Part shown: positions 1-3,000 of the stretch, in pieces
Layout: each line of letters starts with the position of its first letter
Position numbering within the stretch: position 1 is the first letter of the stretch
Assembly: GCA_001821395.1 (NCBI GenBank)
Contig: MHLM01000014.1
Span: forward strand, 1 to 64,000
Length of the DNA stretch: 64,000 nt
Reading direction: 5' to 3'
DNA from: Candidatus Lloydbacteria bacterium RIFCSPHIGHO2_02_FULL_50_18
GTDB lineage: Bacteria > Patescibacteriota > Minisyncoccia > Phycocordibacterales > UBA6899
Position numbers: made by a program

Positions 1-3000
1 AACCGCCTGGGTAGTACAATCGCAAGATTAAAACTCAAAGGAATAGACGGGGACTTGCACAAGCGGTGGATTATGTGGTTTAATTCGATGGTACACGAAG
101 AACCTTACCAGGGCTAGATATCTAATGGAAAGACTTAGGAAACTAAGTAACTCCGCAAGGACCGTTAGACAGGTGATGCATGGCCGTCGTCAGTTCGTGG
201 TTTGAACTGTTCCCTTAAGTGGGGTAACGAACGCAACCCTTGTCGTCTGTTACAAGTGTCAGGCGAGACTGCCCAGCCCTAAGCGCACAATACGATCATA
301 AAAGATGATCGTGATTGCGAATTTGGGGCTGGGAGGAAGGCGGGGATGACGCCAGGTCAGCATGTCCCTAGATGCCCTGGGCTACACACATAATACAATG
401 GAGGTTACAACGGGCAGCGACCCAGCAATGGTGAGCTAATCCTTAAAAAGCCTTCTCAGTCCGGATTGAGGTCTGCAACTCGACCTCATGAAGCCGGAAT
501 CGCTAGTAATCGCGGGTCAGCTAAACCGCGGTGAATACGTTCTCAAGTCTTGTACTCACCGCCCGTCAACTCAAGGGAGCCGGGAGTACCCGAAATCTCA
601 CCTCGTGTGGGCCTAAGGTAAGCTCGGTAACAGGGAGTAAGTCGTAACAAGGCACGGGTAGCGGAAGCTGCTCGTGGATCAATTCCAATTTGGAGCGTTG
701 ATACACTTTCGAGTGTAAAGACTGATAGTCGATGAGTTCCTAGAACTATGGTCATGGTGATACACCCTAAAGGTCACTGCTTAACATGCGAGCGATGCAT
801 GTCGGATAAGGCCTCTCAATACGTAAAGAGGTAAAGTGGAGCGAGACAAAAGAAAGTGCTGTATTTTCTCAATCTTGTTTCTTTCTGAATTTGCATAGCT
901 TGATCGCGTAACACACTATAATCTCAAACAAAAAACCTACTCACCCGAGTAGGTTTTTTGTTGCCATTTTTTAAGTCGGAGGGTATGATAAAAAAATGGA
1001 TGAACAAATGCCAGAGATCAACAAGAAATTACTCGAGATGGATGAAGGTGAACTGCCTCCTGACGGAGAGTTGGGATCCGAGGAATTTGGTGCCTCAGGT
1101 GACGAAGTTGCCGGAGAAGACCTCATGAGCAGTCTCGGTGAGGCTGCCATGGATGAAGCACCGGACGTGCACGAAGCCCCGTCAACGCTTCAGTAGACGA
1201 AGAGTAAAAGACGAAACCCCGCTCAATAGAAAAGCGGGGTCTTGTTTTTGATCATTGTAGGAAAGAAGAAGCCCCGTATGTTTTGCATGCGGGGCTTTTT
1301 GGGGTGATCATCTAGTCTTTGATCGGAGGATCCTTCGCGCGCAGTGCGACGATCATGCTTCGCGTGATCGATTGGCAGCGGAGACAGCGCTCGTCAGTCT
1401 CTGAGTGCTCATTCTCGGCTTTCCAGTAGAGCACATTCTCCTCACTTGTTTGCATGTGCAAGAAGTCACGTTGTTCCTGGGAAAGATCGTTAGGTGACAT
1501 ACCGTTCGCTATTTGCCCCCTGAGGTTTTCAAGTTTTTTGATCCGCCAGTCCGTTTGCAGCGATGCCACGGGAGCGTACTTAGCAGTTTTCGTTTTTGCC
1601 ACGATGAGCCTCACTTCCTTTGTGTAAGTTAAGAAGGGCAAAAGTGCCGTATCTGTGTCTATTATACAAAGCTTGCGCTACCTGTCAATATGTGATATAA
1701 TTTAAGAGTAAGTTTGTTCTATGAATTTTTAATAAGGAGAAGGATAATGGTGAGAAATCGGATATTAAGCAAGCGTGGCTTGTTGTTCACGCTCGCATTT
1801 GTAGTGTTGGGAACGATCTCCCTCGCCATGCTTGATGGGCTCGTGCGTGACCTTGCGGGTGAGCCGCAAATATGGGAAACCCACGTACGTTACACCTGGC
1901 TAGCCAAGGCCGGTTATCGGCAATGCATTGTTGCTGTTCGCGGCAAAACTGCCGAGCCGTGCAGCTCTTTCACGAAGGAGCAGATCGCAACCTTCAGGCT
2001 TCAGTATGAAACTCCGTCGCCGAAGGTCCTTGCCGGGGAGTTTTGAATCAGGAGCGAAATATAAGCCGGGCACACGGTGCTCGGCTTTTTATTCTCTATT
2101 TCCGTTGGCATTGCGATAAACGCTTGTTTTTGCTATATTCTCCCATACAAGCGCGTGTATCAAAGCATACATACGGTTCGTTCGGTTCAAATATAAACAT
2201 ACTTTTAAATCCATTTCTGTTCTGTGTGCGCGTGTAGCTCAGGTGGTTAGAGCGCGTCACTGATAATGACGAGGTCCCAAGTTCGAGTCTTGGCATGCGC
2301 ACACAGAACAGAAGAAAAGCATGTTTATATTTGCCCCTCACTGCCGTTAGTATCAAAGCATATATACGGTTCGTTCGGTCAGAGAATAAATGAGTGCATT
2401 TCTTCTCTTCCCTCACTGCCCTTTGTAGCTCAGGTGCAAAGGTGCCCCTACGGGCTTTTTTTGTTGGAGCGGGCAAAAGATGCGGGCACTCCTTTTGCCC
2501 TAATAATAACGAGATCCCAAGTTCGAGCGACTAATTTTTCTTGACGGTACTCCGTCTTAGAAAAATGAAGTGCTCTTGTGGCGCTTGGCATGCGCACACA
2601 GATGAACAAAAAGCCCCAATTGCTTGGGGTATTTTTGTCTGTCACGTGAAAGATCAGATATGGTATTATCGTAATATGATCAACGAAGCAATTGCAAATT
2701 ATGTGCGTGACGAGCGCGCTCGGGGTGTTGCTGACCAAGCTATTCGTGCCGAGCTATCGGTAAAGGGCTGGAAGTCAGAAGACATCAATGCCGCTCTGCC
2801 GAAAGGAGATGAGTCGACGACGATAGCAACGAAGTCGAAGATATTCGGGTCTGCACTTTTGGGAACAGTAGAAACTGCAGCATTTCGTCTGCTCCTTCTC
2901 GGTTTCGTATTTTTTCTCGTTTCGTCCGTATTGCTCGCTTTGTTTTACGGTGAGGCAAAAAATGATCTCAGCAATCAGCTTGTCTTCGCCCTATTTTCGC

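What the first reader, a model, noticed from the sequence alone, without database searches (positions are those of the whole stretch)
1..2600. 16S rRNA gene unlinked from 23S, with an expansion insertion and a non-canonical 3' tail
The 16S copy ends near 690 and is followed by a terminator (936-962). Three small protein ORFs and a tRNA-Ile come next, and no 23S rRNA lies within the following 63 kb. There is a ~45-nt insertion (CAGCCC...GATCATAAAAGATGATC...GGGCTG) between the GACTGCC and GGAGGAAGG blocks, where E. coli has ~11 nt. After the helix-45-like stem-loop with a GGAA loop the sequence reads GGATCAATTCCAATTT instead of GGATCACCTCCTT, so the CCUCC anti-Shine-Dalgarno core is changed. Genes in the window still use GGAGG-type RBSs. 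The conserved GTCACACC decoding-site block also reads GTCAACTC. Either this lineage has an unusual 3' end, or there is an insertion or assembly issue, or this copy is aberrant.
Basis: seen in the sequence. Interest (0 to 1): 0.5.

Follow-up and report, generated by a model that had tools for sequence, protein, structure and literature searches.

The report
Stand-alone 16S gene lacking anti-Shine-Dalgarno
This is an intact, working-looking 16S rRNA gene from a Lloydbacteria-like member of the Candidate Phyla Radiation; its missing anti-Shine-Dalgarno sequence, extra hairpin and separation from the 23S gene are all traits shared by its relatives and already reported for this group, so it is real but ordinary for its lineage.

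Summary
The sequence features are all present at the stated coordinates. Window 1-689 is the 3' part of a complete 16S gene (1551 nt on the source contig). Its tail reads GGAUCAAUUCCAAU instead of GGAUCACCUCCUUA. Helix 40 carries a 58-nt hairpin, and the three changes at the base of helix 44 are all compensated. No 23S lies within 63 kb.

It is neither an artefact nor a pseudogene. Independent assemblies agree. The gene has its own promoter-like site, a long leader-trailer processing stem and a terminator.

48 species-level genomes, nearly all Patescibacteria/Paceibacteria, have AUUCC, UAUCC or UUUCC tails. Among 120 metagenomic 16S ends with the same helix-45 signature, only 5 keep CCUCC.

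SD-like motifs occur upstream of 5 of 49 genes, which is background level. Motifs complementary to the new tail are not enriched either. An E. coli control run the same way shows clear enrichment. The lineage therefore appears to start translation without SD pairing.

Loss of the anti-SD motif in a Parcubacteria subgroup (Tsurumaki 2022) and unlinked rRNA genes in Patescibacteria (Brewer 2019) are already published. Interest is low to moderate.

The parts
1..689 (+). 3' 689 nt of a bacterial 16S rRNA gene. The full gene is L001 5147-6697 on source contig Ga0209542_10000197; window position 1 corresponds to L001 position 6009.
   Evidence: RF00177 scores 575.5 bits on the window and 1357.3 bits over model 1-1533 on L001. 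L001 and L002 are 99.98% and 99.8% identical to the window over 1-4300.
274..331 (+). Helix-40 expansion hairpin (CAGCCC...GGGCTG), 58 nt where E. coli has about 10.
   Evidence: The covariance-model alignment shows 52 inserted nt against 5. It folds as a single hairpin of -28.9 kcal/mol. Relatives have 44-181 nt hairpins at the same site with the same base, while others have only 10 nt. No ORF is present.
565..572 (+). 5' strand of the helix-44 base (GUCAACUC). A1408 is kept. Positions 1409-1411 changed from CAC to ACU (E. coli numbering, from my own knowledge).
   Evidence: It pairs with GAGU at 635-638 and the covariance model flags no non-standard pair. The diverged allele L004 has AGUU paired with AACU, so it is again fully compensated.
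653..681 (+). Helix 45 with the GGAA loop, followed by the conserved GGAUCA.
   Evidence: Aligned to model 1497-1525 with posterior probability 1.0. The identical helix-45 sequence was used as the clade signature.
682..689 (+). Non-canonical 3' tail AUUCCAAU in place of CCUCCUUA. The anti-SD core is lost.
   Evidence: ATTCC occurs in 33 of 48 genome hits and 14 of 120 metagenome hits. CCTCC occurs in only 5 of 120.
690..926 (+). Structured 3' trailer (external transcribed spacer). Positions 833-905 form the 3' strand of the leader-trailer processing stem.
   Evidence: Window 833-905 pairs with L001 5077-5146, which lies immediately 5' of the 16S. The energy is -78.9 kcal/mol against -30.3 +/- 3.5 for shuffles, z = -13.9. 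The trailer is conserved, with compensatory changes, in about 20 relatives.
927..972 (+). Intrinsic-terminator-like hairpin plus T run that ends the 16S transcription unit.
   Evidence: 16-pair stem followed by GCCATTTTTT. An equivalent hairpin plus T run appears in nearly all relatives.
1008..2046 (.). Three small hypothetical ORFs (1008-1196 +, 1312-1602 -, 1750-2046 +) occupying what was once the 16S-tRNA spacer.
   Evidence: Gene calls come from the public record. None has a Pfam match.
2228..2302 (+). tRNA-Ile(GAT), a leftover of the ancestral 16S-tRNA-Ile-23S spacer.
   Evidence: ARAGORN and RF00005 at 69 bits. 16 of 18 relatives carry tRNA-Ile(GAT) 0.3-3 kb from the 16S 3' end, on the same strand as the 16S in all but L044, and none has a 23S.

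Best explanation
The region is the 3' part of the functional 16S rRNA gene of a Lloydbacteria-like bacterium (Paceibacteria/Parcubacteria, Candidate Phyla Radiation). The gene is transcribed as its own unit: promoter, leader, 16S, structured trailer, terminator. The leader and trailer pair into a long stem of the kind that RNase III cleaves in other bacteria (inferred). The 23S gene lies elsewhere in the genome, and the tRNA-Ile 1.5 kb downstream is what remains of the old spacer.

The 3' tail has lost the CCUCC anti-Shine-Dalgarno core as a clade-wide, inherited trait. This goes with a lack of Shine-Dalgarno motifs upstream of the genes. Start-site selection in this lineage therefore does not rely on mRNA-16S pairing. 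It presumably uses A/U-rich, G-poor, weakly structured leaders, as in Bacteroidetes. That last step is inferred, not shown.

The helix-40 hairpin is a variable-length, lineage-specific expansion of a surface helix. The helix-44 changes are neutral compensated substitutions.
For: Gene integrity:
- Full-length match of 1357 bits.
- The three helix-44 base changes are compensated in this allele and differently in L004.
- Leader-trailer stem of -78.9 kcal/mol, z = -13.9, plus a TTGACC-N17-TATAAT site at L001 4853.
- Terminator.

Not an artefact:
- JGI and ENA assemblies are identical across the tail.

Lineage trait:
- 48 species genomes, almost all Patescibacteria, have GGATCA followed by ATTCC (33), TATCC (14) or TTTCC (1).
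- The best named relative is Candidatus Lloydbacteria L054, at 97.7% over 517 nt.
- The trait is also present in 16S sequences only 81-85% identical.
- Of 120 metagenomic 16S ends with the same helix 45, 5 keep CCTCC. The rest are TTTTT, TTTAT, ATTCC, ATTCA and others.

No SD use:
- 5 of 49 first-ATG genes have GGAG, GAGG or AGGA at -20..-3, against 3-13 of 49 in control windows.
- In relatives the counts are 38 of 248 and 33 of 335, equal to their internal controls.
- The E. coli control gives 16 of 40 against 2-4 of 40.
- In the duplex-energy test, upstream regions bind neither the canonical nor the actual tail better than coding interior (p = 0.99 for both). E. coli gives p = 7e-5.
- Upstream regions are A/T-rich and G-poor.

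Unlinked arrangement:
- None of 18 relatives has a 23S within 3-8 kb.

Literature:
- Tsurumaki et al. 2022 (PMC9297842) detected the anti-SD motif in only 48% of Parcubacteria and inferred that no SD helix forms.
- Brewer et al. 2019 (bioRxiv 10.1101/705046) found unlinked rRNA genes throughout Patescibacteria.
Against: - Gene starts were set by a crude first-ATG rule. About 50 genes is a small sample, and a few ORFs do have good GGAGG or AAGGAG sites (977-982, 1733-1742, and upstream of 22013 and 50735).
- The mature 3' end of the rRNA has not been mapped, so what the ribosome actually carries is inferred from the DNA.
- The 23S and 5S genes of this genome were not located.
- Whether the helix-40 insertion stays in the mature rRNA is unknown.
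- UCC and a GGA 4-7 nt downstream are conserved in 47 of 48 genome hits. This suggests the tail is not drifting freely in the UCC-type subclade.
Confidence: 0.88

Rival explanations
1. Altered-specificity ribosome: the anti-SD changed to AUUCC and the mRNAs co-evolved complementary GGAAU-type ribosome-binding sites.
For: The tail is conserved as AUUCC or UAUCC across many species rather than being random. UCC is retained, so GGA could still pair.
Against: GGAA, TGGA or GAAT occur at -20..-3 in 1 of 49 genes, against 7-12 of 49 in control windows. Duplex energy with the real tail is weaker upstream (-0.99) than inside genes (-1.93), p = 0.999. Sister lineages have U-rich or A/U-only tails.
Confidence: 0.04
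2. Aberrant or pseudogene 16S copy, with a canonical copy elsewhere in the genome.
For: The unusual tail, the extra insertion, and isolation from the 23S. Only 70 kb of the genome was seen.
Against: Full-length 1357-bit match. Every helix-44 base change is compensated. The processing stem, promoter-like site and terminator are intact. The same tail occurs in 48 species, including complete genomes CP174360 and CP174359. CPR genomes usually carry one rRNA copy (my own knowledge).
Confidence: 0.03
3. Assembly chimera or mis-join at the 16S 3' end.
For: rRNA genes are frequent break points in metagenome assembly. L002 does begin inside the 16S.
Against: The JGI (L001) and ENA (L002) contigs agree base for base through 1-4300. 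L001 runs 5 kb further upstream through the whole gene. The leader pairs with the trailer across the gene.
Confidence: 0.01
4. The tail and the sequence just after it form a conserved hairpin (GAUCA + tail pairing with GGA...UGAU). This hairpin either guides 3' maturation or is kept as a terminal helix of the mature rRNA, replacing the single-stranded anti-SD.
For: In 47 of 48 genome hits, UCC is followed 4-7 nt later by GGA. A/U-rich tails are followed by A runs. Native tail/downstream combinations are more stable than swapped ones in 16 of 23 tail classes, p about 0.04. Many bacteria have the analogous CCUCCUUUCUAAGGA (my own knowledge).
Against: In an ensemble pairing-probability test, native sequences do no better than shuffled downstream sequence (11 of 23 classes, p = 0.57). 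The stems are short (3-5 bp) and compete with a GGA/UCC self-fold. Shared ancestry inflates the counts.
Confidence: 0.2

Closest known systems
Parcubacteria subgroup lacking the anti-SD motif (Tsurumaki et al. 2022, RNA 28:1041, PMC9297842)
   Same: Same clade and same trait: CCTCCT is absent from the 16S 3' end. The authors likewise infer that no SD helix forms.
   Different: The paper reports only presence or absence (48% detection) and an overlap with loss of uL1. It does not describe what replaces the motif. Here the replacements are AUUCC, UAUCC, U-runs and others. In the passages I read, the paper also does not test SD motifs upstream of genes. Here they are at background level.
Unlinked rRNA genes (Brewer et al. 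2019, bioRxiv 10.1101/705046)
   Same: The 16S lies more than 1.5 kb from any 23S, and Patescibacteria are listed as a clade with exclusively unlinked genes.
   Different: Here the 16S demonstrably has its own terminator and its own leader-trailer stem. The old spacer tRNA-Ile survives 0.3-3 kb from the 16S end across the clade, with protein genes inserted in between.
SD-independent initiation in Bacteroidetes (my own knowledge: Nakagawa 2010; Jha 2021)
   Same: Genes lack SD motifs and upstream regions are A-rich and G-poor.
   Different: Bacteroidetes keep a canonical CCUCC that ribosomal proteins sequester. Here the sequence itself is gone.
CPR rRNA insertions and introns (Brown et al. 2015, as cited in PMC9297842)
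   Same: Extra sequence inside a CPR 16S gene. The sister allele L004 carries a LAGLIDADG-like ORF inside the 16S.
   Different: The helix-40 insertion in the window is a 58-nt ORF-less hairpin extending an existing helix. It looks like an expansion segment, not a homing-endonuclease intron.

Membership tests
Bacterial SSU rRNA (Rfam RF00177) | Covariance-model score above the gathering threshold over the full model | tested here: met
   575.5 bits for the window part and 1357.3 bits over model 1-1533 on L001, against a threshold of 50.
Bacterial SSU rRNA (Rfam RF00177) | Intact decoding-site and helix-45 core (A1408, A1492/A1493, GGAA loop) | tested here: met
   CGUCA......AAGUCGUAACAAGG and GCGGAAGC are all aligned with posterior probability 1.0. 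The helix-44 base pairs are standard.
Anti-SD-lacking Parcubacteria (Tsurumaki 2022) | No CCTCCT at the 16S 3' end | tested here: met
   The tail is AUUCCAAU. The next CCTCC is at 1056.
Anti-SD-lacking Parcubacteria (Tsurumaki 2022) | Parcubacteria/Paceibacteria affiliation | tested here: met
   97.7% identity to Candidatus Lloydbacteria L054. The other best hits are Paceibacterota MAGs.
Anti-SD-lacking Parcubacteria (Tsurumaki 2022) | Absence of ribosomal protein uL1 (a reported overlap, not strictly defining) | not testable with these tools
   Only about 70 kb of the genome was available. Absence cannot be shown from a fragment.
Unlinked rRNA gene arrangement (Brewer 2019) | More than 1500 bp between 16S and 23S, or no 23S on the same stretch | tested here: met
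   No LSU hit in the 63 kb downstream or the 5 kb upstream. The same holds in 18 of 18 relatives.
Homing-endonuclease intron in CPR rRNA | Insertion of hundreds of bp carrying an endonuclease ORF or a group I/II intron fold | tested here: not met
   The helix-40 insertion is 58 nt, has no ORF, forms a simple hairpin, and gives no intron family hit at gathering threshold.
Altered-specificity SD/anti-SD pair | Enrichment upstream of start codons of motifs complementary to the new tail | tested here: not met
   1 of 49 genes, and the duplex-energy test gives p = 0.999.
rRNA pseudogene | Truncation, uncompensated helix disruptions, loss of expression signals | tested here: not met
   Full length, compensated changes, and a processing stem, promoter-like site and terminator are all present.

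The most novel reading that the evidence does not exclude
In the UCC-type subclade (AUUCC or UAUCC, then a loop, then GGA), the 16S 3' end is not a free single strand. Instead it is a small conserved terminal hairpin, retained in the mature rRNA, that fills the platform pocket normally occupied by the SD helix. That would be an RNA-based counterpart of the protein-based anti-SD sequestration seen in Bacteroidetes. It could also explain why helix 26, the neighbour of the SD helix, is unusually conserved in Parcubacteria (noted in PMC9297842).
Probability: 0.1. Interest if true: 0.6.

Novelty: already known. Interest (0 to 1): 0.3.

Why it matters
The finding is a clean, well-supported example of a bacterial lineage that has lost the Shine-Dalgarno mechanism on both sides, in the rRNA tail and in the mRNA motifs.

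There are practical consequences. Gene callers that score ribosome-binding sites will mis-set start codons in these genomes. Primers or probes aimed at the 16S 3' end (the AAGGAGGTGATCC type) will miss the clade. 16S-ITS-23S amplicon approaches cannot work for these organisms.

Biologically, the many different eroded tails among relatives form a natural series for asking what constrains the 16S 3' end once SD pairing is no longer needed.

Tried and rejected
- Canonical CCUCC further downstream (an intron-split tail). None occurs before position 1056, which is past the terminator and inside an ORF. Rejected.

- Whole leader against whole trailer with duplexfold. The result was indistinguishable from shuffles, so the test was uninformative. 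A local test using the last 70 nt of the leader was decisive.

- Tail-trailer hairpin. The swap test gave weak support, p about 0.04. The ensemble pairing-probability test gave none, p = 0.57. It is left as inconclusive and not used in the main explanation.

- Permissive Rfam scan of 660-2750. It returned only sub-threshold, terminator-driven hits (Phe_leader and Thr_leader at 27-29 bits against a cutoff of 55) and nothing in the trailer.

- Pfam on the three small ORFs and on the 247-aa membrane ORF. No families were found.

- Enriched upstream 4-mers (GTAA, AGTA, TTAC). They probably reflect upstream stop codons and AT-rich spacers, so I do not treat them as a new motif.

- The protein database searches, structure prediction and covariance-model building were not used. 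The question was settled at the RNA and DNA level.
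Full report
**What is there**

Rfam's bacterial SSU model aligns window 1-689 to model positions 867-1533 (575.5 bits). The match is cut only by the left edge of the window. I located the source contig through the RsmI-like gene at 3509-4210. It is JGI metagenome 3300025323, contig Ga0209542_10000197 (151 kb), and window position 1 corresponds to L001 position 6009. 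On that contig the 16S is complete (L001 5147-6697, 1551 nt, 1357.3 bits, model 1-1533). SecD and SecF genes lie upstream of it.

- The tail aligns as GGAUCAAUUCCAAU against the consensus GGAUcACCUCCUUu, so CCUCC becomes AUUCC at 682-686.
- The next CCTCC on the + strand is at 1056. That is past the terminator and inside an ORF, so no canonical anti-SD sits slightly further downstream.
- Helix 40 carries 52 nt where the model has 5. The interval 274-331 folds into one continuous hairpin of -28.9 kcal/mol.
- GTCAACTC (565-572) replaces GTCACACC.
- A terminator-like stem plus T run lies at 927-962.
- tRNA-Ile(GAT) is at 2228-2302.
- No 23S or 5S match occurs in the 64 kb or in the 6 kb upstream.

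**Not an artefact and not a decayed copy**

A JGI assembly (L001) and an ENA assembly (L002) agree with the window at 99.98% and 99.8% over positions 1-4300, including the tail.

The three substitutions at the base of helix 44 (ACU in place of CAC after A1408, by my E. coli numbering) pair with GAGU at 635-638. The covariance model marks no non-standard pair there.

A diverged allele of the same locus exists in two other assemblies (L004 and L005). It has AGUU paired with AACU at the same place, so it is compensated differently, and it carries exactly the same tail GGATCAATTCCAATTTGGAGCG.

The 70 nt immediately 5' of the 16S (L001 5077-5146) pair with window 833-905. The energy is -78.9 kcal/mol against -30.3 +/- 3.5 for shuffled leaders, z = -13.9. 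This is the classical leader-trailer processing stem enclosing a 16S. A TTGACC-N17-TATAAT site lies at L001 4853, and the terminator follows the stem. The gene is therefore a self-contained transcription unit.

**A lineage trait**

I scanned one genome per GTDB species for GTCGTAACAAGG-N21-25-GGATCA-DD-TCC, where DD means that neither of the first two anti-SD positions is C. This returned 48 genomes. Almost all are labelled Patescibacteria, Paceibacterota or Parcubacteria: Lloyd-, Kaiser-, Yonath-, Ryan- and Wolfebacteria, UBA2103, UBA2163, and some labelled Saccharibacteria. Their tails are ATTCC (33), TATCC (14) and TTTCC (1).

The closest named relative is a Candidatus Lloydbacteria MAG (L054), at 97.7% identity over 517 nt. 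The same kind of tail is found in 16S genes only 81-85% identical to this one, so the trait is old.

A second scan covered JGI metagenomes and required only the clade's helix-45 sequence, leaving the tail free. Only 5 of the 120 have CCTCC. The others read TTTTT (31), TTTAT (17), ATTCC (14), ATTCA (10), ATTAT, ATTAA, CTTCC, TATCC and so on. The anti-SD has therefore been eroded in many different ways within this clade. That is the pattern expected once selection for SD pairing has gone.

**The supposed paradox**

I took the 49 long reading frames of the window, used the first ATG as the start, and looked for GGAG, GAGG or AGGA at -20 to -3. 5 of 49 have one, compared with 3-13 of 49 in control windows elsewhere.

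For the 13 genes with public gene calls the figure is 3 of 13.

The same crude procedure on 50 kb of E. coli K-12 gives 16 of 40 against 2-4 of 40, so the method does detect SD use when it exists.

Pooling genes from the relatives' loci gives 38 of 248 for UCC-type tails and 33 of 335 for A/U-rich tails. Both equal their internal controls.

Motifs complementary to the actual tail (GGAA, TGGA, GAAT) occur in 1 of 49 genes.

In a duplex-energy test, upstream regions of the window bind the canonical tail at -1.83 and the real tail at -0.99 kcal/mol. Both are weaker than for coding interior (p = 0.99 and 0.999). E. coli upstream regions bind the canonical tail at -4.44 against -2.36 kcal/mol (p = 7e-5).

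Upstream regions here are A/T-rich and G-poor. The lineage therefore shows no sign of SD pairing, either canonical or re-specified.

**Unlinked arrangement**

I examined 18 relatives with several kb of sequence downstream of the 16S. None has a 23S there. 16 of the 18 have a tRNA-Ile(GAT) 0.3-3 kb from the 16S 3' end, on the same strand as the 16S in all but L044. The tRNA-Ile in the window is thus the surviving spacer tRNA of an ancestral 16S-tRNA-Ile-23S operon. The 16S now terminates on its own, and small genes have settled in between.

**The helix-40 insertion**

Relatives carry hairpins of 44-181 nt at the same site. They share the same closing pairs (CAGCCC...GGGCTG), and none of the 44-127 nt examples encodes an ORF; the longest (181 nt, L047) was neither folded nor checked for one. 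More distant relatives have the ordinary 10 nt. This behaves as a variable expansion segment of a surface helix, not as a homing-endonuclease intron. Whether it stays in the mature rRNA cannot be told from DNA.

**Comparison with what is known**

Tsurumaki et al. 2022 (PMC9297842) report that the anti-SD motif CCTCCT is detected in only 48% of Parcubacteria. They note that the lineages lacking it largely coincide with those lacking uL1, and that SD helices are thought not to form there.

Brewer et al. 2019 (bioRxiv 10.1101/705046) list Patescibacteria among the clades with exclusively unlinked rRNA genes.

CPR rRNA insertions have been known since Brown et al. 2015, as cited in both papers.

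Full-text searches combining Shine-Dalgarno or anti-Shine-Dalgarno with Parcubacteria, Patescibacteria or CPR returned nothing further on this point.

The headline features are therefore already known. This analysis adds some detail:
- the actual replacement sequences and their diversity;
- the measured absence of SD motifs in the mRNAs;
- the autonomous promoter-stem-terminator layout;
- the conserved relic tRNA-Ile.

**An idea that stayed inconclusive**

In 47 of 48 genome hits, the UCC of the tail is followed 4-7 nt later by GGA. U-rich tails are followed by A runs. The MFE folds often pair GAUCA plus the tail with the next 15-25 nt. This resembles the CCUCCUUUCUAAGGA arrangement common in other bacteria (my own knowledge).

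A swap test, comparing each tail's native downstream sequence with that of other tail classes, favoured native combinations in 16 of 23 classes (p about 0.04). A pairing-probability test against shuffled downstream sequence showed no difference (11 of 23 classes, p = 0.57).

I therefore do not build on this. It remains the basis of the most novel reading still open, which is a retained terminal hairpin replacing the free anti-SD strand. I give that about a 10% chance.

**Verdict**

One correction applies: the genes do not use SD sites. The finding is ordinary for Paceibacteria and already in the literature, so interest is low to moderate (0.3).

Noticed in passing
window 2415-2600 (flank repeat 2157-2186 = 2350-2379): A second, degenerate copy of the tRNA-Ile region. 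D-arm, anticodon-arm and T-arm pieces are recognisable, but two insertions of about 45 nt split them and the 5' acceptor strand is lost. Neither ARAGORN nor Rfam calls it. It looks like a decaying tandem duplication.
   Followed up: partly
L004 1-1235 and L005 1-813 (same locus in other assemblies), corresponding to window 558-962: A mosaic allele. It is 99.9% identical to the window from position 926 onward, but only 85% identical from helix 44 to the terminator. A LAGLIDADG-like ORF fragment (Pfam E = 0.004, below the cutoff) ends about 20 nt before ACCGCCCGTCA, which suggests an intron near E. coli position ~1390. An extra 132-aa coiled-coil ORF is bracketed by a duplicated terminator. This suggests recombination or co-conversion linked to intron homing.
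   Followed up: partly
window 690-832: The trailer between the 16S end and the processing stem is a conserved structured spacer in about 20 Lloydbacteria-like relatives. Several hairpins show compensatory changes, for example ACATGC..GCATGT against CTCGC..GCGAG, and CCTCT..AGAGG against CCCCG..CGGGG with a conserved AATACGTTA loop. Positions ~770-860 are identical between the two 85%-diverged alleles. There is no Rfam match.
   Followed up: partly
L001 5225-5257 (outside the window, 5' domain of the same 16S): A second small insertion, 32 nt where the model has 3, in the helix-6 region of the same 16S gene.
   Followed up: no
window 3509-4210: An RsmI-type methyltransferase gene (TP_methylase, E = 2.5e-28) lies 2.8 kb downstream of the 16S whose C1402 it would modify. 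Its protein sequence is identical in at least 15 contigs from several samples.
   Followed up: no
window 7453-9618 and 11126-12622: A 721-aa ATPase with weak matches to type IV secretion coupling proteins and HerA (TraG/TrwB/DUF87, E about 1e-5). There is also a 498-aa protein with lamin-tail and PKD domains, typical of CPR surface or DNA-uptake equipment.
   Followed up: no
L007 and L027 (genome-contig hits): Two hits with non-canonical tails are labelled Gammaproteobacteria and Thermogutta. Their helix 45 resembles the CPR type, so they are probably CPR contigs mis-binned into those MAGs.
   Followed up: no
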